Part shown: positions 50-12,011 of the stretch, piece by piece
Layout: each line of letters begins with the position of its first letter
Position numbering within the stretch: the stretch's first letter is position 1
The notes under the pieces: generated by a model
What the model was told of the DNA's origin: nothing
The model's input: only the letters and a program-made list of their open reading frames with translations
Databases searched by the model: none
DNA from: a virus
Length of the DNA stretch: 34,728 nt
UHGV virus genome: UHGV-0126338
Direction: 5' to 3' (one strand)
Made by a program: the position numbers and the translations under genes

Positions 50-586
50 ATGCGTCGCGCTAACGATCCGCAACGGCGAGAAAAAATTATCCAGGCCACG
101 CTGGAGGCGGTGAAACTTTACGGAATACATGCTGTTACGCACCGCAAAATTGCTACCCTTGCCGGGGTACCGTTGGGATCGATGACCTACTATTTTTCAG
201 GAATTGATGAGTTGTTACTGGAGGCGTTCAGCAGTTTTACTGAGATCATGTCCCGGCAATATCAGGCATTTTTTAGCGATGTTAGTGATGCTCCGGGCGC
301 ATGCCAGGCTATCACCGATATGATCTACAGCTCACAGGTTGCAACGCCGGATAACATGGAGCTGATGTACCAGCTCTACGCGCTGGCTAGCCGAAAACCG
401 CTATTAAAAACGGTAATGCAAAACTGGATGCAGCGCAGTCAGCAAACGCTCGAACAATGGTTTGAACCCGGAACCGCCCGCGCGCTTGATGCGTTTATTG
501 AGGGGATGACGCTGCATTTTGTCACCGACCGTAAGCCGCTATCGCGCGAGGAGATTTTGAGGATGGTTGAGAGGGTTGCAGGGTAG
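50..586 (+). CDS. rcdA: Host TetR-family transcriptional regulator (resembles RcdA/YbjK); real start taken at internal ATG 50 (MRRANDPQ...)
   Basis: ORF 20..586; N-terminal helix-turn-helix region ([17 protein letters not shown]) typical of TetR family; sequence recalled as E. coli YbjK/RcdA; GC-normal host-like composition; lies outside the prophage. Confidence 0.55.
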
Positions 587-603
587 TAGATAAGTTTTAG
601 ATA

Positions 604-631
604 ACAAAAAACCCATTTATGTAAACGGGTT
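604..631 (-). terminator. Putative rho-independent terminator downstream of int (minus strand)
   Basis: Imperfect 10-bp inverted repeat AACCCATTTA-tg-TAAACGGGTT (610..631); on the minus strand the hairpin is followed by TTTTTTGTT (A-run 604..609 on plus strand). Confidence 0.35.
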
Positions 632-690
632 AATGAAAACAACAAGTTAGATTAAAAACAATAAGTTAGGTTGGTGGTCAGTGGTGGTTA

Positions 691-1743
691 TTACGGGGTA
701 ATGCCAACCGCTGCCGCCACTTTGTCGCCACTTGGCAGCGTTGCCAGAGGATTGAAACGGAGCGCCGTTTCCAGATGATCCGGTGCCAGATGTGCGTAAC
801 GCATAGTCATTTTTATATCGTGGTGTCCGAGAATTTTTTGTAAGGCCAGAATGTTTCCACCCGACATCATGAAGTGCGCCGCAAACGTATGGCGCAGAAC
901 GTGTGTGAGTTGACCGCGAGGGAGCACGATAGACGTTTTTTCCATCACGGATAAAAATTGAAAATAGCAGTCTGTGAAGAAATTGAACCCATCAAGCGCC
1001 ATGATCTCTTCGTAAAGCTCTTTACTGATAGGGATACTTCTGTTTTTCTTCCCCTTCGTTCTTACAAAGGTAATTCGGTATTTGGTCACCTGTGAACGAG
1101 TAAGATTTACGGCTTCTCGCCAGCGCGCGCCTGTGCTTAAGCATATCTTAACTACCAGTGCTAGAATTGGGTCCTGACGTTTGCAATCAGCCAGTAATTC
1201 AACAATCTGCTCATGGGTAAGCCATGCCATCTCTTTTTCTGCGATGGTGAATTTTCGCATGTTCTCCAGTGGGTTCGGATACGACCATTCGCCCAGACGG
1301 GATAGTTCGCTAAAAACACTACTTAGATAGCTTTGCTCCAGGTTAATGGTGACCGGGCTTGCTCCTTTCTTCCATTTCTCGCTGAAGTAGATCTCGCCTG
1401 TCAGGCGTTTATCTCGATAGTGGGCAAACATTTTAGAGGTGAGATCGGTTGCAAGAGGATTGCCCAGAGCGCCAACCATCAGCAGCAATTTGTCATAGAC
1501 ATGCTGCCCAGCAGTCAGAGATTTACCATGTAGTTTGAACCATAGCTCAACCACGTCTTTCAGGGTTCGACGATCCACTGATTCGCCCAGCCATGGCTTT
1601 GATTCGGTTTCTTCCATAGTGTGACGCTCAAAAGCCAGAGCTTCGCCTTTGGTGGCGAATTGTTTACGCACACGACGCCCACTTCGTCCGGCGGGGTAAC
1701 ATTCGCAAAGCCATTTCCCTGTGGTGAGTTTTCGTACTGCCAT
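691..1743 (-). CDS. int: Phage integrase, tyrosine recombinase (P2 Int-like)
   Basis: ORF 691..1899 trimmed to ATG 1743 (MAVRKLTTGKW...); C-terminal catalytic region with R...HxxR...Y context (LTHVLRHTFAAHFMMSGGNILALQKILGHHDIKMTMRYAHL) matches the P2 integrase family from memory. Confidence 0.9.
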   Translation of the reverse strand: MAVRKLTTGKWLCECYPAGRSGRRVRKQFATKGEALAFERHTMEETESKPWLGESVDRRTLKDVVELWFKLHGKSLTAGQHVYDKLLLMVGALGNPLATDLTSKMFAHYRDKRLTGEIYFSEKWKKGASPVTINLEQSYLSSVFSELSRLGEWSYPNPLENMRKFTIAEKEMAWLTHEQIVELLADCKRQDPILALVVKICLSTGARWREAVNLTRSQVTKYRITFVRTKGKKNRSIPISKELYEEIMALDGFNFFTDCYFQFLSVMEKTSIVLPRGQLTHVLRHTFAAHFMMSGGNILALQKILGHHDIKMTMRYAHLAPDHLETALRFNPLATLPSGDKVAAAVGITP

Positions 1744-1931
1744 AAAAAATGCCCTCCAGTAGAGAGCATTTTTACTGTATGTATAACCAGTGTCAATGTA
1801 TGAAATCCTACGACCATACATCTCACTGAAGCCATAATGAAGTTGGCTATTCTTTTTGCTATGTGAGCATGTAACTTTTGCGGTTAACCTGCGGCTCATT
1901 TTTATTTTAGACGCAGATATAAAAGCAAAAG

Positions 1932-2123
1932 TTATCGTGAGTTTTTAGTACAGATTTTTTTGGATTTACTAATAGTTCCATCATTGCAAACGAATTTGCC
2001 ATCTGAGGTACAGTGAGAAACACCTCCCTTTTTCCCTGAGCAGGGATAATTTCTAGCATAGGTAGTTAGTGGGTTTAATAACAAAGAACATGACAAAACC
2101 ACAAAAAATACCTTACCAAGCAT
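1932..2123 (-). CDS. Small secreted Cys-containing protein (63 aa), hypothetical moron
   Basis: Strong RBS GGGAGG 6 nt upstream of ATG on minus strand; predicted Sec signal peptide [23 protein letters not shown]; ~40-aa mature part with 4 Cys; AT-rich relative to flanking genes; sits between cI and int. Confidence 0.5.
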
Positions 2124-2138
2124 AGTTTCCTCCCGGTA

Positions 2139-2714
2139 CTATTTAACATACTTGACTGTTAAACTTATAATTTTACCAATTATTTCAATGTGTTCTATCT
2201 TACATTCGAAGGCTCTGTTTCCACCCTCGACGAAGATTCTTCCACCGGGTAAACGAGTAATGTCACGGATCGTTACTTCGCCATCAATACTTATTACCCA
2301 TTTACCATCACGTATATCATCAAATTCTTTATCACAAATAAATTCAGAATTGTTATCTGTGATGACAAAAGGTTTTTTAAACGTAGAGGGTAGAAATCCC
2401 TTATCAAAAATATAAAAACCGTCTTCACGCAAGGCACCATCAGATAATACATATTTAGCAACTTCCATAGTATTTGTATTACCTGAAGTTTGCTTTGAAC
2501 CATGTCCGGTTGTGAGCCAATTAAGCGAGGTGCCCGTTTCAAGGGCGCACTGGATTACCCATTCTGCTGGGAATGAGTCACGCATGTAGCGTGTGGCGAG
2601 TGTACTTTTAGAGATTCCTAAATGATCGCACAACGCCTGTCGAGTTTTGAATCCATAAGCTTCTACCATGCGCTCTATAGCGCCTCGTCCGCCTTTCTCC
2701 AAATTCATGGTCAC
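2139..2714 (-). CDS. cI: Prophage CI-type repressor (186 CI-like, N-terminal HTH)
   Basis: 191-aa ORF divergent from apl/cII; N-terminal HTH (QALCDHLGISKSTLATRYMRDSFPAEW); size and position match the 186-type immunity repressor. Confidence 0.7.
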   Translation of the reverse strand: MTMNLEKGGRGAIERMVEAYGFKTRQALCDHLGISKSTLATRYMRDSFPAEWVIQCALETGTSLNWLTTGHGSKQTSGNTNTMEVAKYVLSDGALREDGFYIFDKGFLPSTFKKPFVITDNNSEFICDKEFDDIRDGKWVISIDGEVTIRDITRLPGGRIFVEGGNRAFECKIEHIEIIGKIISLTVKYVK

Positions 2715-2732
2715 TCCAAGTGAACTTTTATC

Positions 2733-2761
2733 TTGACGATTTCATTGTGCGATCGTATGTT
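2733..2761 (+). promoter_or_regulatory. Candidate rightward early promoter (pR-like) in the cI/apl switch region
   Basis: TTGACG (2733..2738) - 17 bp - TATGTT (2756..2761) upstream of apl; sigma70-like spacing read directly. Confidence 0.3.
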
Positions 2762-2833
2762 TATGGTGTTCACAAAATACAAACGATCCGTATTCGTCCT
2801 GATTAATCATCATTAAACGAGGAATGTTGCATC

Positions 2834-3055
2834 ATGAGACCTAACATTTCAATCACTCTTACCACGCCTCATGTGACTATTGAGCGCTATAGCGAGCTGA
2901 CAGGGCTGTCCATCGATACCATCAATGACATGTTGGCTGACGGACGCCTTATCCGTCACCGTTTGCGCAAAGATAAAAAACGCGAAAAAGTGATGATCAA
3001 CATAGCAGCCATGACCGTTGATGCGCTTTCAGAATGCAATCTAAACCTTAATTAG
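2834..3055 (+). CDS. Apl/Cox-like excisionase/early regulator
   Basis: 73-aa ORF immediately divergent from the repressor gene, the position of cox (P2) / apl (186); small basic protein. Confidence 0.5.
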
Positions 3056-3087
3056 TTCGATTCTGAAATACATCAGAGGCATTGACC

Positions 3088-3597
3088 ATGTTTGATTACC
3101 AAGTTTCCAAACATCCACATTTTGATGAAGCCTGTCGTGCATTTGCACTGCGCCACAATCTGGTGCAACTGGCAGAACGTGCAGGCATGAATGTGCAGAT
3201 TCTGCGGAACAAGCTGAACCCAGCTCAGCCTCATCTATTAACCGCACCAGAAATCTGGCTGCTTACCGATCTGACTGAAGATTCAACGCTGGTAGATGGT
3301 TTTCTGGCACAGATTCATTGTCTGCCATGTGTACCGATTAATGAGGTGGCAAAAGAGAAACTGCCACATTACGTCATGAGTGCAACCGCAGAGATCGGGC
3401 GTGTTGCTGCAGGTGCGGTATCTGGCGATGTAAAAACCAGTGCAGGTCGTCGTGATGCTATCAGCAGCATTAACTCTGTAACACGACTGATGGCGTTGGC
3501 TGCTGTTTCATTGCAGGCCCGTTTACAGGCTAACCCTGCGATGGCGAGTGCAGTTGATACCGTGACCGGCCTCGGTGCTTCATTCGGTTTGCTGTGA
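3088..3597 (+). CDS. cII: Phage CII-type regulatory protein (CP76 family)
   Basis: ORF 3082..3597 trimmed to ATG 3088 with RBS AGAGG 8 nt upstream; ~169 aa; position after apl as in 186. Confidence 0.65.
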
Positions 3598-4888: not shown

Positions 4889-5742
4889 GCACCATCCTGA
4901 AATGGGCGGGAAATAAAACTGCCATAATGTCCGAACTGAAAAAACATCTTCCTGCTGGCCCGCGACTGGTTGAACCTTTCGCGGGTTCCTGTGCTGTGAT
5001 GATGGAGACGGATTATCCCAGCTATCTGGTTGCGGATATTAATCCTGATTTAATCAACCTCTATAAAAAGGTTGCCGCTGATTGTGAATCGTTTATATCT
5101 CGCGCCAGAGTTTTATTTGAGATCGCAAACAGGGAGGTGGCTTATTACAACATAAGGCAGGAGTTTAATTACTCAACTGAAATTACTGATTTCATGAAAG
5201 CGGTATATTTCCTGTATCTCAATCGTCACGGTTACCGTGGTTTATGTCGCTATAACAAGAGCGGGCATTTCAACATTCCCTACGGTAATTATAAAAATCC
5301 GTATTTCCCTGAAAAAGAAATTCGCGCATTTGCAGAAAAGGCCCAGCGAGCAACGTTTATCTGCGCCAGCTTTGATGAAACGCTGGCGATGTTGAAGGCG
5401 GGGGATGTGGTGTATTGCGATCCGCCGTATGACGGTACGTTTTCCGGCTATCACACTGACGGCTTCACTGAAGATGACCAGTATCACCTGGCATCTGTTC
5501 TTGAACATCGGTCATCAGAAGGACATCCGGTCATTGTTTCTAACAGTGACACATCCCTGATCCGTTCGCTGTATCGCAATTTTACTCACCACTACATCAA
5601 GGCAAAACGCAGCATCGGTGTGGCAGCTGGCGAGGGTAAATCAGCAACAGAAATCATTGCTGTTTCCGGGCCGCGCTGCTGGGTGGGATTTGATTATTCG
5701 CGTGGCGTGGATAGTTCTGCCGTGTACGGAGTACGTGCATGA
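4885..5742 (+). CDS. dam: DNA adenine methyltransferase (Dam-like, orphan)
   Basis: ORF 4825..5742 trimmed to ATG 4885 (RBS GGAGG; ATGA overlap with upstream stop); N-terminal ILKWAGNK motif and DPPY motif ([11 protein letters not shown]) read directly. Confidence 0.85.
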
Positions 5743-8153
5743 GTCATGCCGATATGAACAACTGCTGCGGCTTTAACGAAGCTGCCGCATCGTTCTCATG
5801 GAACAGCCCGAAAAAGGCCATTAACCCTTATCTGGACCCGGTGGAAGTTGCGCCGGTTTCTACGCTTTCAAACCTGATCACTCTGTACGCTGCCGATAAC
5901 GAGCAGGAACAGCTGCGCCGTGAGGCGCTGAGTGATCAGGTCTGGGAGCGTTATTTCTTTAATGAATCCCGTGATCCTGTCCAGCGCGAAATGGAACAGG
6001 ATAAGCTCATTAGTCGGGCAAAGCTGGCGCATGAGCAGCAGCGTTTTAATCCGGATATGGTCATTCTGGCGGACGTCAACGCCCAGCCTTCCCATATCAG
6101 CAAGCCGCTGATGCAACGTATTGAATACTTCAGCAGCCTGGGCAGGCCAAAGGCTTATTCCCGCTATTTACGTGAGACGATTAAGCCATGTCTGGAACGA
6201 CTGGAGCATGTACGCGACAGTCAGCTATCTGCATCTTTTCGCTTTATGGCAAGCCATGAAGGGCTGGACGGCCTGCTGATCCTGCCTGAAATGAGTCAGG
6301 ATCAGGTGAAACGCCTGTCCACCCTGGTAGCTGCGCATATGAGTATGTGCCTTGATGCCGCTTGTGGCGATTTGTATGCCACCGATGACGTTAAGCCAGA
6401 AGAAATCCGCAATACATGGGAAAGGGTGGCAGCGGAAACCCTGCGTCTGGATGTCATCCCGCCTGCGTTTGAGCAACTCCGTCGGAAAAGAAACCGCCGT
6501 AAACCCGTGCTCTATGAACTCATTCCGGGTTCGCTGGCGCGTATGTTGTGCGCCGACTGGTGGTATCGGAAATTATGGAAGATGCGTTGCGAATGGCGGG
6601 AAGAGCAGTTGCGTGCAGTCTGCCTTGTCAGCAAAAAAGCATCTCCTTATGTCAGCTATGAAGCCGTGATGCATAAACGTGAGCAGCGCCGTAAGTCGCT
6701 GGAGTTTTTCCGTTCTCATGAACTGGTGAACGAAGACGGCGACACGCTGGACATGGAGGATGTGGTAAACGCCAGCAGCAGCAACCCAGCGCATCGCCGC
6801 AATGAGATGATGGCCTGTGTTAAAGGTCTGGAGCTTATCGCGGAAATGCGCGGTGACTGCGCCGTTTTCTACACCATCACCTGTCCGTCACGTTTCCATT
6901 CCACGCTAAATAACGGCAGGCCCAACCCAACCTGGACAAATGCGACGGTAAGACAAAGCAGTGATTATCTGGTCGGCATGTTTGCTGCATTTCGTAAGGC
7001 GATGCACAAAGCCGGATTGCGGTGGTATGGCGTGCGGGTGGCTGAGCCGCATCATGACGGTACAGTTCACTGGCACCTGTTGTGTTTTATGCGCAAAAAA
7101 GACCGCCGCACCATCACTGCATTACTGCGTAAGTTTGCCATCCGTGAAGACCGCGAGGAGCTGGGCAATAACACTGGGCCGCGCTTTAAGTCTGAGTTGA
7201 TTAACCCGCGCAAAGGTACGCCAACAAGCTACATCGCGAAATACATCAGTAAGAACATTGACGGGCGTGGTCTGGCTGGCGAGATCAGCAAGGAAACGGG
7301 GAAATCCCTGCGTGATAATGCTGAATACGTTAATGCCTGGGCGTCTCTGCATCGTGTTCAGCAATTCCGCTTCTTTGGCATTCCGGGGCGTCAGGCTTAC
7401 CGTGAACTGCGATTGCTGGCTGGTCAGGCGGCAAGGCAACAGGGGGACAAAAAAGCAGGTGCGCCGGTACTGGATAACCCGCGCCTTGATGCCATTCTGG
7501 CTGCTGCTGATGCTGGTTGTTTTGCCACCTACATCATGAAGCAGGGTGGCGTACTGGTTCCCCGCAAATATCACCTCATCAGAACTGCTTATGAAATCAA
7601 CGAAGAGCCGACCGCCTATGGCGATCACGGCATTCGTATTTATGGCATCTGGTCACCTATTGCAGAGGGCAAGATCTGCACTCATGCCGTGAAGTGGAAA
7701 ATGGTTCGTAAGGCCGTTGACGTTCAGGAGGCGGCAGCCGACCAGGGCGCTTGCGCCCCTTGGACTCGTGGCAATAACTGTCCCCTTGCTGAAAATTTGA
7801 ACCAACAAGGGAAAGACAAATCAGCTGATGGGGATACCAGAACGGACATTACCCGCATGGATGACAAGGAGTTGCACGAATACCTGCACAGTATGAGCAA
7901 AAAAGAGCGCCGGGAACTGGCTGCAAGGTTACGCCTGGTGAAACCGAAACGGCGTAAAGACTACAAACAGCGAATTACAGACCATCAGCGACAGCAGCTC
8001 GTCTATGAACTGAAGTCCAGAGGATTTGATGGCAGCGAGAAAGAGGTCGATTTACTCCTTCGCGGCGGCAGTATTCCGTCAGGAGCAGGCCTGCGTATCT
8101 TCTATCGGAACCAGCGTTTGCAGGAAGATGATAAGTGGCGGAACCTGTATTAA
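5739..8153 (+). CDS. A: Replication initiation endonuclease (P2 gpA-like rolling-circle replicase)
   Basis: 804-aa ORF; motifs [11 protein letters not shown] and [12 protein letters not shown] match P2 A family from memory; start overlaps dam stop (ATGA). Confidence 0.9.
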
Positions 8154-8305: not shown

Positions 8306-8494
8306 ATGCAGGACTATTTTTTGGAGTCTTTGAAGCTCCAGCGCATTGATTTTTTTCTTAAGCTTGTAGCGGCTAGTGAGTGTAGTGATGAAGAGAAGGG
8401 GCTGGCTCTGCAGTGGGTTTCTGAATTGACTGATGAACTCATGGCAAAAATCAGAACCCACGAATACAACCGCTCAATGGATGTCATCAGCTGA
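8306..8494 (+). CDS. Small hypothetical protein, SOS-regulated (possible antirepressor analogue)
   Basis: 62-aa ORF with RBS AGGAGG upstream, directly downstream of the LexA box and upstream of the DinI-like gene. Confidence 0.4.
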   Translation: MQDYFLESLKLQRIDFFLKLVAASECSDEEKGLALQWVSELTDELMAKIRTHEYNRSMDVIS

Positions 8495-8504
8495 GGTGAC
8501 CTTT

Positions 8505-8738
8505 ATGCGTATTGAAATAATGATCGATAAAGAGCAGAAGATTAGCCAGTCTACCCTGGACGCCCTTGAATCCGAGCTTTACCGCAATCTGCGCCCCCTG
8601 TATCCCAAAATGGTAATTCGCATCCGCAAAGGTAGCTCTAACGGTGTGGAACTGACCGGACTGCAACTGGACGAAGAAAGAAAACAAGTGATGAAGATTA
8701 TGCAGAAGGTGTGGGAAGACGACAGCTGGCTGCATTAA
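8505..8738 (+). CDS. DinI-family protein
   Basis: ORF 8433..8738 trimmed to ATG 8505 (RBS GAGGTG); 77 aa MRIEIMIDKEQ...WEDDSWLH resembles DinI (MRIEVTI...WESADDWF). Confidence 0.75.
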   Translation: MRIEIMIDKEQKISQSTLDALESELYRNLRPLYPKMVIRIRKGSSNGVELTGLQLDEERKQVMKIMQKVWEDDSWLH

Positions 8739-9684: not shown

Positions 9685-9770
9685 CGCGCGCAACTCGAGA
9701 TAGTGTGATACTTATCTGAGAAATCTTAACAAGGTTCAATACAATACCCTTTCAAAAAAAGGGGAGTGTG

Positions 9771-10922
9771 ATGTTTGTAAAAAATAACTTTAATACAAAT
9801 AATTTCGATGCGGAATTAGTTGAAGCGATTGGTAATAGGCTGGAAAACAACCAATTTTCGGATGCAATACTTGCAGGAACCAAATATCTAACAACTTTGC
9901 TGCGTGAAAAAGGGCAATGTGAAGGGGATGGGGCTCAGCTTGTTGGTACTGTTTTGGGTGGACAATCACCTAGAATCCAAATTAATAGTCTTCAATCTGT
10001 ATCAGAGCAGGACGAACAGCGCGGATTTGAAGCACTATTAAGAGGCTACTATCAGTGTATAAGAAATCCAAGGACACATGACAATTTCCCTGATACAGAA
10101 GATTCCTGCATGAGAATATTGATCATGTTGGATACTTTTATTAAGTATTTAAAAAGAGATGTTGCTGAGTTCGATTACACAGCAATTCTTGAAAGAATTT
10201 ATGAGGTTCACTTTGTAAATAATTCTGATTATGCAGAAGCTTTAATATCACAAATTCCAGAAAAAAAACTACTAGATTTTTTCCAAAGTTTAATTTCTCG
10301 CTTTAATGAAAGGCCAACCAAGGAAATTGATTCTATATTCAAAGCAATAAACCAACGCTTTTCAGGAGAGGAAGAAAAAGCCGCAATGCGGTTGCTAGGT
10401 GATGAGTTACGTAAGGCTAGCAATAATGTTGAGTTTGCTAATGTATTTAGAATAATTAAGCCGAGCGCATGGAGAAATCTTCCTGATGATGTTTTAATTA
10501 GAATGGAAAATATAATCATCGAAGAGTGCAAAAAAGGATATTTGGATTTCTATTCTGATGCGACCAAAGGAGCTATAGGAACATGGGGTAATACATTTGG
10601 TAGCAAATTTAAAAGAAGAGGTGATCTTGGTGATGCTTTAATTGGATTGTTATATGATAGTTGGTATACGCAAAATTATGTTGCGAAATATTACGTTTTT
10701 TCAATCCCTTCTATCATTACTGATGATGTGAAAGTTAAGGAGTTAGCTGATGCTTTAGCTTATGCCACCATTGTAAATGGTGCTAAGCTTTTACGAACAA
10801 AATTGATTGATGCATGTAAAAATTATCCTGATAAGTTGAAAGAGCATCTTAGGGATGCTGTTCAGCAACGGATGGATAGTGATAAAAAATATGCGGAAGA
10901 ATTATTAGGTCAAATAAGCTGA
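9771..10922 (+). CDS. Cargo protein with N-terminal HEPN-like domain (R-x4-H motif; resembles TIGR02391-type family) and uncharacterised C-terminal domain; candidate anti-phage/abortive-infection effector
   Basis: ORF 9768(GTG)/9771(ATG)..10922; RBS GGGGAG; motif IRNPRTH (R99-x4-H104, nt 10062..10079); strongly AT-rich versus the flanking phage genes; sits between cos and portal gene Q, convergent with Q. Confidence 0.6.
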   Translation: MFVKNNFNTNNFDAELVEAIGNRLENNQFSDAILAGTKYLTTLLREKGQCEGDGAQLVGTVLGGQSPRIQINSLQSVSEQDEQRGFEALLRGYYQCIRNPRTHDNFPDTEDSCMRILIMLDTFIKYLKRDVAEFDYTAILERIYEVHFVNNSDYAEALISQIPEKKLLDFFQSLISRFNERPTKEIDSIFKAINQRFSGEEEKAAMRLLGDELRKASNNVEFANVFRIIKPSAWRNLPDDVLIRMENIIIEECKKGYLDFYSDATKGAIGTWGNTFGSKFKRRGDLGDALIGLLYDSWYTQNYVAKYYVFSIPSIITDDVKVKELADALAYATIVNGAKLLRTKLIDACKNYPDKLKEHLRDAVQQRMDSDKKYAEELLGQIS

Positions 10923-10973: not shown

Positions 10974-12011
10974 CTAATCTAATTCATATGAGGTAAATTT
11001 AACCAGTTCTTCATTAAGTCCAATCCATGAGTTAATTTCAGATATTCTGTGTTGTAGCGGAATTAACTCATTCCTGACAAAAACCTTACTAGCCTTTTCA
11101 ACATCCCCAAACCCGCCAACATTACTAGGCATAATCCCCATCATCTGCGGCGGTACACGGTGCGCTGCCATCATGTCATCCCGGCTCACGTTCTTGATGT
11201 TCAGAAACTCATCTTTTGCCGCCACCTCTGACAGCGGGATGATCTGAATCCCGTCTTTCTTTCCGTTGGGTGAGTACATAAACAAGTTGCGGAAGTTGCC
11301 CGGCCCTTTGGCGCTTTTCATCGCATTGCGGAGGTTGTTCACATCCTCCTGGTTCTGCGCGGCATCGGTCATGTACATGATGAAGCCTGCATGACTACCG
11401 TTAATGTAATATTTGCGGCGGAACAGCGTGGCGGACTCGTTGAGCAAAGCGGATGGGATGGCAGAAAGATAGCCGGGCAGGCCGTAGATCTCCTGATTAA
11501 TATCTGGTTCCATCAGATGAAAAATGCTGCCTTTCGTGAACTGATACGGCTGGGTTGTCATACCGTATTGCACAAACCAGTAGGTATCCAGGTCTAACCC
11601 GCGTCGGGTATATTTTGCCAGGGCAGGCTCAAGGGCGATAACTTCACCGAAGCGGTTCGTGCGTTTCTCCAGGTAGGCGTTACCAAATACCAGGTAGTCC
11701 TGCACAAAACGTGAAAAAGCCTGCTGGCTGAGCAGCGGGTGAGGGATATAGGTACTGGTCAGAATGTTGCACTTTACTGCAATCGGGGAACTGTGATGCA
11801 CGGCAGCGCGGAAGGTGCGCGCCAGTCCGTCAAAGCTGACGGGCGGCTCATACCAACGGTCCATCTGTACGCATTCCACATAGTCCAGTAATTCTCGGCG
11901 GTCCAGAACAGGAACGGGATCGCCGAAGCTGAATGCTTCGGCTGTAGTTTGACTTTTAAGCTGGATCTGATTCGTCGCCGCAGCGCGGTTCTTCTTACTC
12001 TTTCCCATCAA
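10974..12011 (-). CDS. Q: Portal protein (P2 gpQ-like)
   Basis: 345 aa, overlaps terminase P stop; size and order match P2 Q. Confidence 0.9.
   Translation of the reverse strand: MMGKSKKNRAAATNQIQLKSQTTAEAFSFGDPVPVLDRRELLDYVECVQMDRWYEPPVSFDGLARTFRAAVHHSSPIAVKCNILTSTYIPHPLLSQQAFSRFVQDYLVFGNAYLEKRTNRFGEVIALEPALAKYTRRGLDLDTYWFVQYGMTTQPYQFTKGSIFHLMEPDINQEIYGLPGYLSAIPSALLNESATLFRRKYYINGSHAGFIMYMTDAAQNQEDVNNLRNAMKSAKGPGNFRNLFMYSPNGKKDGIQIIPLSEVAAKDEFLNIKNVSRDDMMAAHRVPPQMMGIMPSNVGGFGDVEKASKVFVRNELIPLQHRISEINSWIGLNEELVKFTSYELD

What the first reader, a model, noticed from the sequence alone, without database searches (positions are those of the whole stretch)
1932..2123. Small secreted Cys-containing peptide gene inserted between repressor and integrase
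A 63-aa ORF with a very strong RBS, a predicted signal peptide and a ~40-aa mature peptide with four cysteines sits inside the lysogenic cI-int transcription unit. It would therefore be expressed in the lysogen. It is AT-rich relative to int and has no counterpart in canonical P2 or 186 as far as I recall. Candidate lysogenic-conversion factor (toxin, bacteriocin-like or envelope-modulating peptide).
Basis: partly seen in the sequence, partly recalled or inferred. Interest (0 to 1): 0.5.

Follow-up and report, generated by a model that had tools for sequence, protein, structure and literature searches.

The report
Prophage copy of periplasmic mini-protein YdcA
A real, strongly conserved 63-codon gene sitting just behind the repressor of a 186-like E. 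coli prophage encodes an exported, disulfide-knotted 40-residue protein of the uncharacterised YdcA family; it is a swappable cargo gene made in lysogens, probably acting in the cell envelope, but its function is still untested.

Summary
Window 1932-2123 (-) is a 63-aa ORF with a GGGAGG Shine-Dalgarno, a Sec-type signal peptide and a 40-aa, +7-charged mature part with four cysteines. It starts 15 nt after the stop of a 186-type cI.

It is a real gene: synonymous sites are saturated while the core barely changes. It is already catalogued as NCBIfam NF007463, PHROG 6000 and RefSeq "YdcA family protein". It is a paralogue of chromosomal E. coli ydcA, whose function is unknown.

Phage 186 has nothing at this position. 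Sibling prophages at the same rcdA site carry PD-Lambda-1 or a KAP NTPase there. Haemophilus phage HP2 carries an unannotated homologue there.

The gene is in 628 of 5426 complete E. coli genomes, including BL21(DE3), in 493 IMG/VR contigs, and on plasmids. The domain also forms the N-terminus of secreted nucleases of three unrelated folds, and each lobe of Legionella Dis2, a Dot/Icm T4SS outer-membrane-cap subunit.

Best reading: a lysogen-expressed periplasmic cargo protein, plausibly hindering entry of foreign DNA. The function is inferred, not shown. A toxin or bacteriocin role is disfavoured. Moderate interest.

The parts
1932..2123 (-). ydcA-like coding sequence (63 codons plus a TAA stop at 1934-1932)
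   Evidence: ORF list. NCBIfam NF007463 scores 115.8 bits against a curated cut-off of 93. PHROG 6000, E 1.9e-34. RefSeq names it WP_000900883.1 'YdcA family protein'. Purifying selection.
2055..2123 (-). Predicted Sec signal peptide (residues 1-23, cleavage after T-Y-A)
   Evidence: Read from the sequence. The alignment shows variable hydrophobic N-termini that end in a small-x-small motif just before the conserved domain. K-12 YdcA is described as having a signal sequence and being predicted periplasmic. SignalP was not run. A lipobox-like VLSC at residues 9-12 is not excluded.
1935..2054 (-). Mature 40-residue domain ([40 protein letters not shown]), four conserved Cys
   Evidence: Invariant or near-invariant residues include [11 protein letters not shown] ... 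F, C, D, G, S, S, K, C. AF2 model with pLDDT 81.5, a beta-hairpin. The top fold hit is Dis2.
2129..2134 (-). Shine-Dalgarno GGGAGG, inside the 15-nt gap between the cI stop (2141-2139) and the ATG
   Evidence: Direct reading of the minus strand.
2139..2714 (-). 186-type cI repressor, the upstream gene of the same (lysogenic) transcription unit
   Evidence: Pfam Phage_CI_repr 2.8e-33 and Phage_CI_C 3.3e-28. The 186 annotation of pL/pE driving cI-int serves as the model.
1827..2138 (-). Cargo cassette: the ydcA-like gene plus its 3' untranslated hairpin. Absent from 186 and replaced by other genes in sibling prophages.
   Evidence: Alignment of the regions upstream of int. Homology to prophages carrying a KAP NTPase or PD-Lambda-1 starts at window 1826. 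Slot variants.
1872..1934 (-). Long stem-loop directly after the stop codon, with no U-run. Possibly a 3' stabiliser.
   Evidence: RNAfold of 1740-1940 (-): MFE -62.4 kcal/mol, z = -6.3 against shuffles. Conserved in BL21(DE3).
1744..1826 (-). Conserved int leader. It holds a promoter-like TTGACA-17-AAAAAT (1796-1768) and a hairpin (about 1745-1773) that contains the int Shine-Dalgarno and is followed by U6 and the int ATG (1743).
   Evidence: Promoter scan. RNA fold. The leader is conserved whatever the cargo, and phage 813R9 has a different stem sequence that still pairs.
691..1743 (-). P2/186-type tyrosine integrase; prophage end next to host rcdA (50-586)
   Evidence: Pfam Int_N and Phage_integrase. 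RefSeq annotation of an identical locus.

Best explanation
WHAT IT IS (well supported)
- It is a prophage-borne paralogue of E. coli ydcA.
- The protein is exported by Sec and its leader is removed, most likely after Ala23.
- The 40-residue remainder folds in the periplasm into a small, strongly basic beta-hairpin domain. By homology with Dis2 it is held by two disulfides.
- The gene lies 15 nt behind cI with its own strong ribosome-binding site. It should therefore be made continuously from the lysogenic promoter.
- It is a roughly 310-bp cargo cassette in the cI-int slot. That slot is empty in phage 186 and holds anti-phage genes in sibling prophages.

HOW IT MOST LIKELY WORKS (inferred, not shown)
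- In the periplasm of the lysogen it binds an anionic or envelope target. The target could be DNA in transit, or the outer-membrane-proximal part of machines that carry DNA.
- In doing so it hinders entry of foreign DNA: superinfecting phage, conjugative DNA or transforming DNA. This protects the resident element.
- The closest functional analogy is Glo, the periplasmic protein encoded between cI and int of Vibrio phage K139.
For: IDENTITY
- Family models match above their cut-offs.
- The signal peptide and four-Cys core are conserved across Gamma-, Beta- and Alphaproteobacteria.
- dN/dS is about 0.18, with synonymous sites saturated.

EXPRESSION LOGIC
- A 15-nt gap to cI and a strong Shine-Dalgarno.
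- No promoter-like or terminator-like site between cI and the ORF.
- In 186, pL and pE drive the cI operon.

CARGO SLOT
- 186: cI and int overlap.
- Phage 813R9, same rcdA site: PD-Lambda-1, PADLOC E 3e-120.
- Other E. coli prophages at the rcdA site: a KAP NTPase matching PADLOC PDC-S20, E 1e-171, either alone or stacked after the ydcA-like gene.
- A cI-int defence hotspot is already described for K139-like phages (PMC9122126), and a minor int-primase hotspot in P2-like phages (PMC13586616).

SAME SLOT RECURS IN DISTANT PHAGES
- Haemophilus HP2 has an unannotated 60-aa homologue whose ATG overlaps the cI stop.
- In Yersinia prophages cI is only 38% and int 46% identical to those of the window, yet the core of this gene is 25/27 identical.
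- Related Pasteurellaceae prophages have it too.
- About 20 of 80 species-level loci lie in P2-like prophages.

MOBILE-ELEMENT BIAS
- 493 IMG/VR contigs.
- Moraxella and Acinetobacter phages.
- 58 plasmid records, including a 3.9-kb MOBQ plasmid with only five genes.

LINK TO DNA OR ENVELOPE MACHINES
- Among 60 long family members, the only enzyme partners are secreted nucleases of three unrelated folds: Endonuclease_NS in 4, SNase in 1 and PLD/Nuc in 1.
- The mature peptide carries a net charge of +7.
[quoted passage not shown] The evidence is a profile E of 3e-5, the top Foldseek hit with TMq 0.62 and 36-39% identity, the shared Pfam family PF27300, and an hhalign E of 2.4e-4. Dis2 sits next to the outer membrane and has five disulfides (PMC8486379).
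- In HP2 the next gene in the slot encodes a secreted OB-fold (tRNA_anti-like) protein.
- K139 glo encodes a periplasmic protein and is called the family's immunity gene (PMC4870250). That Glo mediates exclusion rests on my recollection of Nesper et al. 1999, which is not held in the library.
Against: - No experiment links any YdcA-family protein to phage, conjugation or transformation.
- PADLOC has no model that matches it.
- It has no detectable sequence similarity to K139 Glo: no Vibrio phage hit.
- E. coli also keeps a chromosomal ydcA outside any prophage, next to cybB. Its only reported phenotypes concern 3-hydroxypropionate sensitivity and stationary-phase or acid regulation.
- Basic charge is not universal in the family: core net charge ranges from -1 to +6.
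- Dis2 makes protein-protein contacts (DotK, DotC, DotD) rather than DNA contacts, and it is dispensable.
- Nuclease fusions could reflect tethering to the envelope rather than DNA binding.
- Phage DNA normally crosses the periplasm inside a conduit, so simple DNA sequestration may not block it.
- Transcription, export and disulfide formation were not tested.
Confidence: 0.35

Rival explanations
1. Envelope-homeostasis or stress-tolerance factor. The prophage copy does in the periplasm whatever chromosomal YdcA does, for example helping survival under acid, organic-acid or stationary-phase stress. It raises lysogen fitness by dosage or by lysogeny-linked expression, and has no role against incoming DNA.
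For: - The core is 22/27 identical to K-12 YdcA.
- Deleting ydcA made E. coli W sensitive to 300 mM 3-hydroxypropionate, and ydcA is reported as YdcI-controlled and acid-induced (PMC7642389).
- There is an RpoS-holoenzyme SELEX site in the rydC/ydcA intergenic region.
- ydcA is up-regulated on entry into the persister-forming phase.
- Many family members are chromosomal with unrelated neighbours.
Against: - This does not explain the repeated capture by phages, always in the lysogeny module, or the presence on tiny plasmids.
- It does not explain the nuclease fusions.
- E. coli already has ydcA, so a second copy adds little unless it has diverged in target.
- The 3-HP phenotype was fully suppressed by yieP deletion and is mechanistically unexplained.
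Confidence: 0.25
2. Generic outer-membrane-proximal tether or adaptor domain. The mini-domain binds a conserved envelope component such as an OM lipoprotein, peptidoglycan or the inner leaflet of the OM. As a stand-alone protein it decorates or competes for that site. In fusions it merely anchors enzymes, and in Legionella it glues Dis2 to DotK, DotC and DotD.
For: - Dis2 sits next to the outer membrane and contacts lipoproteins and the OmpA-like DotK.
- The architecture 'signal peptide - domain - low-complexity linker - enzyme' is typical of anchoring modules.
- Tandem repeats and long Lys/Ala-rich tails occur in Providencia.
Against: - If it were a general anchor, one would expect fusions to proteases, glycosidases or lipases. 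Only nucleases were found among the enzyme partners, although only 60 proteins were examined.
- This gives no reason for the prophage association unless occupying the site blocks something. In that case it merges with the main explanation.
Confidence: 0.15
3. Secreted toxin, bacteriocin or antimicrobial peptide that harms competitors.
For: - Small (4.3 kDa), cationic (+7) and Cys-rich, superficially defensin-like.
- Encoded by a mobile element.
Against: - No immunity gene, ABC or T1SS exporter, or lysis gene is adjacent: the neighbours are cI and int.
- A Sec leader alone leaves the protein in the periplasm of a diderm.
- A near-identical core is a chromosomal gene in Escherichia.
- The domain is used as an internal module of larger proteins and as a structural T4SS subunit.
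- The only weak hits to protease-inhibitor or LDL-receptor Cys-rich folds had E of 0.08 or worse.
Confidence: 0.05
4. Chance ORF or decaying remnant with no function.
For: The ORF is short and lies in an AT-rich stretch where ORFs arise easily.
Against: - Curated family models match above their cut-offs.
- The ORF is full length in 80 of the 80 best IMG/VR loci, and 628 E. coli genomes hold a match covering at least 80% of it.
- pN 0.16 against pS 0.88.
- There are 441 representative clusters at 50% identity.
Confidence: 0.01

Closest known systems
E. coli K-12 YdcA (b1419; NCBIfam PRK10040 group, Pfam PF27300)
   Same: Same family and architecture: a signal peptide followed by one four-Cys domain. 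The core is 22/27 identical. It is predicted periplasmic.
   Different: YdcA is chromosomal, next to cybB and rydC, and not in a prophage. The prophage copy matches a different NCBIfam sub-model (NF007463 rather than NF007462), has an unrelated signal peptide, and is more basic. The function of YdcA itself is unknown.
Legionella pneumophila Dis2 (Lpg0823), subunit of the outer-membrane cap of the Dot/Icm type IVB secretion system (PDB 7MUC/7MUD)
   Same: Each Dis2 lobe is the same small disulfide-stabilised domain. It is the top and only meaningful PDB match by sequence profile (E 3e-5) and by fold (TMq 0.62, 36-39% identity). A Dis2-like protein carries the same Pfam family. Both are exported to the periplasm.
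   Different: Dis2 has two lobes, five disulfides and no basic SKSKK motif. It is a stoichiometric part of a T4SS. The window protein has one domain and no T4SS nearby. The Dis2 literature treats it as Legionellales-specific with no homologues.
Glo of Vibrio cholerae phage K139, a periplasmic protein encoded between cI and int
   Same: Same slot in a P2-related phage, the same orientation as cI, and a periplasmic product. The K139-type cI-int interval is a described defence hotspot.
   Different: There is no detectable sequence similarity: no Vibrio phage hit. Glo is much larger. That Glo takes part in exclusion is my recollection of Nesper et al. 1999 (J Bacteriol 181:2902), which I could not read here.
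Other occupants of the same cI-int slot in E. coli rcdA-site prophages: PD-Lambda-1 and the KAP NTPase (PADLOC PDC-S20)
   Same: Same insertion point, the same flanking cI and int leader, and the same orientation. In strain PSJ-29 the ydcA-like gene and the KAP NTPase are stacked.
   Different: Those are large cytoplasmic NTPase-type defence proteins. This one is a 63-aa exported protein with no PADLOC match.
Small envelope-located exclusion proteins of mobile elements, such as IncP TrbK, ColE1 MbeD and T4 Sp/Imm (recalled from general knowledge, not tested here)
   Same: Small, exported, constitutively made by the resident element, and acting at the envelope.
   Different: No sequence or structural relationship was examined or found. 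Several of these are lipoproteins or membrane proteins. This is an analogy only.

Membership tests
YdcA family (NCBIfam NF007463 / PRK10040; PHROG 6000; Pfam PF27300) | Score above the curated family cut-off | tested here: met
   NF007463 scores 115.8 bits against a cut-off of 93, E 5e-34. PHROG 6000, E 1.9e-34. PF27300 is precomputed on nearly all homologues. The local Pfam copy lacks that model.
YdcA family (NCBIfam NF007463 / PRK10040; PHROG 6000; Pfam PF27300) | Four conserved Cys (C-x9-C-x6/7-C-x11-C) within the motif PCSGKKGG[VI]xHC...F[VI]CxDG[ST]xSxSKKxC | tested here: met
   Alignments A1 and A4. Invariant or near-invariant positions: P27, C28, S29, G30, K31, K32, G33, G34, V35, H37, C38, F44, C46, D48, G49, S52, S54, K55, C58.
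YdcA family (NCBIfam NF007463 / PRK10040; PHROG 6000; Pfam PF27300) | N-terminal Sec signal peptide, with the cleavage site just before the conserved domain | tested here: met
   A hydrophobic 10-mer (mean Kyte-Doolittle 2.7) and small residues at -3/-1, placed 2-3 aa before the conserved Pro, in 80 of 82 members including the window. This is a heuristic only; SignalP was not available.
YdcA family (NCBIfam NF007463 / PRK10040; PHROG 6000; Pfam PF27300) | Periplasmic location and disulfide bonding of the mature protein | not testable with these tools
   Inferred from the leader and from the five disulfides seen in the homologous Dis2 structure.
Dis2 (Lpg0823)-type T4BSS outer-membrane-cap subunit | Shared fold and sequence of the lobe domain | tested here: met
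   Foldseek top hit 7muc_AN (probability 0.98 and 0.82, TMq 0.62, 36-39% identity). hmmsearch E 1e-4 and 3e-5. hhalign E 2.4e-4. PF27300 on the Dis2-like protein P0229.
Dis2 (Lpg0823)-type T4BSS outer-membrane-cap subunit | Two tandem lobes pinned by five disulfides | tested here: not met
   The window protein has a single domain with four Cys. Two-domain relatives exist elsewhere, such as P0081 and P0083.
Dis2 (Lpg0823)-type T4BSS outer-membrane-cap subunit | Encoded with, or assembled into, a Dot/Icm-type secretion system | tested here: not met
   The neighbours are cI and int of a P2/186-like prophage next to host rcdA. No T4SS families were seen among the neighbours of 58 other loci.
Prophage superinfection-exclusion gene in the cI-int slot (K139 Glo type) | Located between cI and int, co-oriented with cI, with an exported product | tested here: met
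   The same arrangement occurs in HP2, Yersinia and Pasteurellaceae prophages.
Prophage superinfection-exclusion gene in the cI-int slot (K139 Glo type) | Sequence homology to Glo | tested here: not met
   tblastn against 50,697 phage records gave no Vibrio phage hit at E <= 0.01.
Prophage superinfection-exclusion gene in the cI-int slot (K139 Glo type) | Reduces infection by incoming phage when expressed | not testable with these tools
   Needs plating assays.
Known anti-phage defence systems (PADLOC-DB v2) | Match to any defence-protein model | tested here: not met
   0 families at E <= 0.1. The alternative occupants of the slot do match.
Bacteriocin or secreted peptide toxin | Linked immunity, export or processing genes | tested here: not met
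   The gene is flanked directly by cI (15 nt away) and by the int leader. No conserved partner gene was found across 58 other loci.
Bacterial lipoprotein | Lipobox [LVI][ASTVI][GAS]C after a sufficiently long hydrophobic region | tested here: inconclusive
   V-L-S-C occurs at residues 9-12, but Leu at -2 is atypical and only about 7 hydrophobic residues precede it. This Cys is absent from most family members. No lipoprotein predictor was available.

The most novel reading that the evidence does not exclude
The YdcA domain may be a previously unrecognised, widespread module that mobile elements use to guard the periplasm against incoming DNA. It is a roughly 35-residue, two-disulfide, mostly basic periplasmic domain. 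As a stand-alone 40-mer made from the lysogenic operon, or from small plasmids, it would act as a minimal single-gene exclusion or anti-transformation factor. Fused to nucleases, it would target them to DNA in transit. Duplicated, it became Dis2 of the Dot/Icm secretion system.
Probability: 0.2. Interest if true: 0.7.

Novelty: new member of a known kind. Interest (0 to 1): 0.42.

Why it matters
- The gene is made by default in about one in nine sequenced E. coli strains, including the workhorse BL21(DE3). Yet nobody knows what any YdcA-family protein does.
- Placing it in a swappable lysogeny-operon slot that otherwise holds anti-phage genes gives the whole family a concrete, cheap-to-test hypothesis: plating, conjugation and transformation assays with a 192-bp gene.
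- Tying it to secreted nucleases and to Dis2 strengthens that hypothesis. Dis2 is a T4SS subunit until now described as having no homologues.
- If the hypothesis is wrong, the result is still useful.

Tried and rejected
- The local Pfam-A copy gave no hit for the ORF, only a chance GULLO2 match at E 0.075. The family model PF27300 is newer than that copy.
- PADLOC gave no hit.
- The NCBIfam lpg1681 family matched at E 0.11. I judged this to be chance and did not pursue it.
- PDB sequence hits to potato type-II protease inhibitors and to LDL-receptor class A repeats (E 0.08-3) were treated as Cys-pattern noise.
- Megablast of the region against phage records found only the 5' end of int in Klebsiella phages, so there is no sequenced phage twin.
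- I scanned the neighbours of 58 non-P2 loci for a conserved partner gene such as a nuclease, T4SS or competence gene. None was found. The commonest neighbour was cybB, the Escherichia ydcA locus.
- The UniRef name 'conjugal transfer protein' for this cluster, the plasmid gene called ydcA on pS88 and the B. subtilis ydcA are naming coincidences or unverified labels, not evidence.
- The literature on E. coli ydcA gave only indirect phenotypes.
- The key K139 paper (PMC93736) is not held.
- Rfam found nothing in 500-3200.
- The terminator scan did not list the hairpin before int. The likely reason is that its A/U extension absorbs the U-run, so I rely on RNAfold and the alignment.
- I first used 1746 as the int start. 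The RefSeq annotation puts it at 1743.
Full report
**1.
- The minus strand of 1932-2123 holds a 63-codon ORF.
- GGGAGG lies 5 nt before its ATG. Only 15 nt separate that ATG from the TAG stop of the upstream gene.
- The upstream gene is a 186-type cI repressor (Pfam Phage_CI_repr and Phage_CI_C). The downstream gene is a P2/186-type integrase.
- The host gene at the left end is rcdA. The window is therefore an E. coli 186-like prophage at the rcdA site.
- The N-terminus has the layout of a Sec signal peptide (MLGK, then a hydrophobic core, then T-Y-A). That leaves a 40-residue mature part with four cysteines, net charge +7 and pI 9.7.
- The ORF is AT-rich: 35.4% GC against 48.5% for int. So are the 3' spacer and the C-terminal half of cI.
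- In phage 186 the cI stop overlaps the int start. No Escherichia phage record contains a homologue.

**2. It is a real gene of a catalogued family**
- NCBIfam NF007463 (PRK10040.1-2) matches above its curated cut-off. PHROG 6000 matches at E 2e-34.
- RefSeq names the identical protein 'YdcA family protein'. Homologues carry Pfam PF27300.
- An alignment of diverse members shows unrelated signal peptides followed by an almost invariant core, [12 protein letters not shown]...[15 protein letters not shown].
- Over 27 core codons in 79 distinct sequences, mean pN is 0.16 and pS is 0.88. dN/dS is about 0.18 where synonymous sites are not saturated. Against a sibling prophage the values are 0.016 and 0.52.
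- A profile search of 1.84 billion representative proteins finds 441 clusters.
- The K-12 chromosomal paralogue YdcA is 57 aa, lies next to cybB and rydC, and shares 22 of 27 core residues. It is described as a predicted periplasmic protein of unknown function.
- Only indirect phenotypes are reported for it: 3-hydroxypropionate sensitivity of a deletion in E. coli W, acid and YdcI control, an RpoS promoter site, and induction towards stationary phase.

**3. Anatomy: a cargo cassette in the lysogenic operon**
- No promoter-like or terminator-like site lies between cI and the ORF. By the 186 model, pL and pE transcribe cI and what follows it.
- I aligned the regions upstream of int from five prophages. 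An 83-nt int leader (1744-1826) is conserved whatever lies upstream. The cassette is therefore 1827-2138.

| Prophage or phage | Content of the cI-int slot |
|---|---|
| Phage 186 | empty; cI and int overlap |
| Window and BL21(DE3) | ydcA-like gene |
| Strain PSJ-29 | ydcA-like gene, then a KAP NTPase |
| Strain Z1323CEC0007 | KAP NTPase alone (PADLOC PDC-S20, E 1e-171) |
| Phage vB_EcoM-813R9 | PD-Lambda-1 (E 3e-120) |
| Klebsiella phage 4LV2017 | 349-aa protein with no family match |

- A cI-int defence hotspot has been noted for K139-like Vibrio phages (PMC9122126). A minor integrase-primase hotspot has been noted for P2-like phages (PMC13586616).

**4. The same gene recurs in the same place in distant phages**
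- Haemophilus phage HP2 has an unannotated 60-codon homologue whose ATG overlaps the cI stop. It is followed by orf1(S) and int. Phage S2 also gave a tblastn hit; HP1 was not among the hits.
- Yersinia alsatica, Y. aldovae and Y. nurmii prophages have cI, then the ydcA-like gene, then int. Their cI is only 38% and their int 46% identical to those of the window.
- Pasteurellaceae prophages match the HP2 pattern.
- About ten Beta- and Gammaproteobacterial loci (Comamonas, Janthinobacterium, Iodobacter, Aquabacterium, Oceanisphaera) have the gene between homologues of P2 gpA and the tail genes.
- In Thorsellia an S24-type cI-like repressor lies directly upstream.
- In all, about 20 of 80 species-level loci are in P2-like prophages.
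- Other mobile carriers are Moraxella and Acinetobacter phages, 493 IMG/VR contigs and 58 plasmids. One of these is a 3.9-kb MOBQ plasmid with five genes.
- 628 of 5426 complete E. coli genomes carry the prophage gene.

**5. What the domain is related to**
- Among the 60 longest of the 150 best representatives, the recognisable partners are as follows:
  - Endonuclease_NS (4 proteins), SNase (1) and PLD/Nuc (1). These are three unrelated secreted nuclease folds, always C-terminal to 'signal peptide - YdcA domain - linker'.
  - The PBCV basic adaptor domain (2), VasL (1) and DUF4124 (1).
  - Tandem duplications of the domain itself.
- AlphaFold models are moderately confident: pLDDT 77 for the full length and 81.5 for the mature part. 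They show a small beta-hairpin.
- In both fold searches the top PDB hit, and the only one that stands out, is chain AN of 7MUC/7MUD. That chain is Dis2 (Lpg0823) of the Legionella Dot/Icm T4SS.
- Sequence profiles hit the same chain at E 1e-4 and 3e-5, and nothing else significantly.
- A Dis2-like protein carries PF27300. hhalign gives E 2.4e-4.
- Dis2 is described as two similar lobes pinned by five disulfides, next to the outer membrane, with no structural relatives and Legionellales-specific. It contacts DotK, DotC and DotD and is dispensable (PMC8486379 and PMC12716638).
- The window protein is thus a single-lobe relative. It fails the tests for being a Dis2 orthologue: it has one domain and no T4SS nearby.

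**6. Mechanism**
- Shown: the gene, the family, purifying selection, the position in the cassette, the distribution on mobile elements, the domain fusions and the relation to Dis2.
- Inferred: co-transcription with cI, export, the cleavage site and the disulfides.
- Hypothesised: the protein acts in the periplasm of the lysogen on an anionic or envelope target, either DNA in transit or the outer-membrane-proximal parts of DNA-translocating machines. That would reduce entry of foreign DNA.
- The hypothesis rests on five points:
  - the company it keeps in the slot;
  - its repeated capture by phages and small plasmids;
  - the nuclease-only enzyme fusions;
  - its charge;
  - the analogy with K139 Glo, a periplasmic protein in the same slot. 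Its role in exclusion is recalled from Nesper et al. 1999, which I could not read.
- I give this about 0.35.
- The main rivals are a stress or envelope-homeostasis role like that of chromosomal YdcA (0.25) and a generic outer-membrane-proximal tether (0.15).
- The toxin or bacteriocin idea is unlikely (0.05). There is no partner gene, the protein has a Sec-only leader, and the core is shared with a chromosomal gene found in Escherichia.

**7. Verdict**
- The gene is not an orphan. It is an already annotated member of a known family of unknown function, in a known kind of prophage cargo slot.
- What is new here is the context:
  - recurrence in the lysogeny module across Peduoviridae;
  - unannotated copies in HP2 and in Acinetobacter phage Ab11510-phi;
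  - the nuclease fusions;
  - the link to Dis2, which the Dis2 papers do not mention, although a Dis2-like protein is assigned the same Pfam family (PF27300).
- Interest is moderate. The gene is easy to test because it is present in BL21(DE3).

Noticed in passing
L002:2920-3102 (+), which is NC_003315.1 complement 2486-2668: Haemophilus phage HP2 has an unannotated 60-codon YdcA-family ORF ([60 protein letters not shown]). Its ATG overlaps the cI stop. The next gene, orf1(S), encodes a signal-peptide-bearing OB-fold protein (Pfam tRNA_anti-like, E 2.8e-13). Phage S2 shows the same tblastn hit; HP1 was not among the hits.
   Followed up: partly
L004:3417-3602 (+), Acinetobacter phage Ab11510-phi MT361972.1: An unannotated 61-codon YdcA-family ORF lies between two annotated hypothetical genes. 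Several Moraxella Mcat phage records also lack an annotation at the matching place.
   Followed up: partly
window 1744-1826 (-): The 83-nt int leader is conserved whatever cargo lies upstream. A hairpin (about 1745-1773) contains the int Shine-Dalgarno and is followed by U6 and the int ATG. Phage 813R9 has a different stem sequence that still pairs. It looks like an attenuator or translational control of int. A promoter-like TTGACA-17-AAAAAT (1796-1768) lies in the same leader.
   Followed up: partly
window 1872-1934 (-): A long stem-loop lies directly after the ydcA-like stop codon, with no U-run. The whole 1740-1940 stretch folds far better than shuffles (z = -6.3). It is conserved in BL21(DE3).
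   Followed up: partly
L007:3591-5267; L089:1642-2973; L090:3925-5256: Sibling E. coli prophages at the rcdA site carry PD-Lambda-1, or a KAP-family NTPase (PADLOC PDC-S20, PifA-like), in the cI-int slot. In strain PSJ-29 the NTPase is stacked after a ydcA-like gene.
   Followed up: yes
window 8433-8738 (+) and 9768-10922 (+): Between the replication gene (5739-8153) and the next large ORF (10974-12011, minus strand), where the classical P2 cargo hotspot would be expected, there is a DinI-like gene. There is also a 384-aa protein with a Hypoth_Ymh/HEPN domain that resembles PD-Lambda-3_B (E 2.4e-14). This may be a second cargo or defence gene of this prophage.
   Followed up: partly
L173:2501-2692 (NZ_CP053602.1 875000-875191): BL21(DE3) carries the same int, ydcA-like and cI arrangement in its defective P2-like prophage (cII and the replication gene are truncated). 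The ORF region is 94% identical at the nucleotide level to the window's.
   Followed up: partly
L091:728-904 (Acinetobacter pittii plasmid pApiMCR53a, 3916 bp): A five-gene MOBQ mobilisable plasmid devotes one gene to a YdcA-family protein, next to a small TraD-like gene. 29 Acinetobacter and 17 Rhizobium plasmid records also carry family members.
   Followed up: partly
P0112, P0148, P0176, P0199, P0197, L069:4569-5321; L030, L042, L067, L071; L037, L039, L043 and others: Family architectures beyond the stand-alone form: N-terminal fusion to SNase, Endonuclease_NS and PLD-type nucleases; two or three tandem copies; long Lys/Ala-rich repeat tails in Providencia; and a C-terminal CxC...TGPRGGxYC extension (PBCV basic adaptor-like) in Betaproteobacteria.
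   Followed up: partly
L009 (JAEWTL010000113.1, labelled 'Bacillota bacterium' MAG): A 3-kb contig of a MAG labelled Bacillota encodes proteins 95-100% identical to the window's rcdA, int, ydcA-like gene, cI, apl and cII. This is almost certainly a mis-binned or contaminating contig.
   Followed up: no
L063:4956-5129 (Shigella flexneri CP182557.1): The chromosomal ydcA copy has an altered signal peptide and core (…LIFLLCRCRHKPCSGSKRGISHC…). This suggests decay of the gene in this Shigella lineage.
   Followed up: no
window 2088-2099 (-), residues 9-12 of the ORF: A lipobox-like V-L-S-C lies inside the signal peptide of the E. coli prophage subgroup only. If it were used, the product would be a lipoprotein with a longer mature part. 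This could not be resolved without a predictor or an experiment.
   Followed up: no
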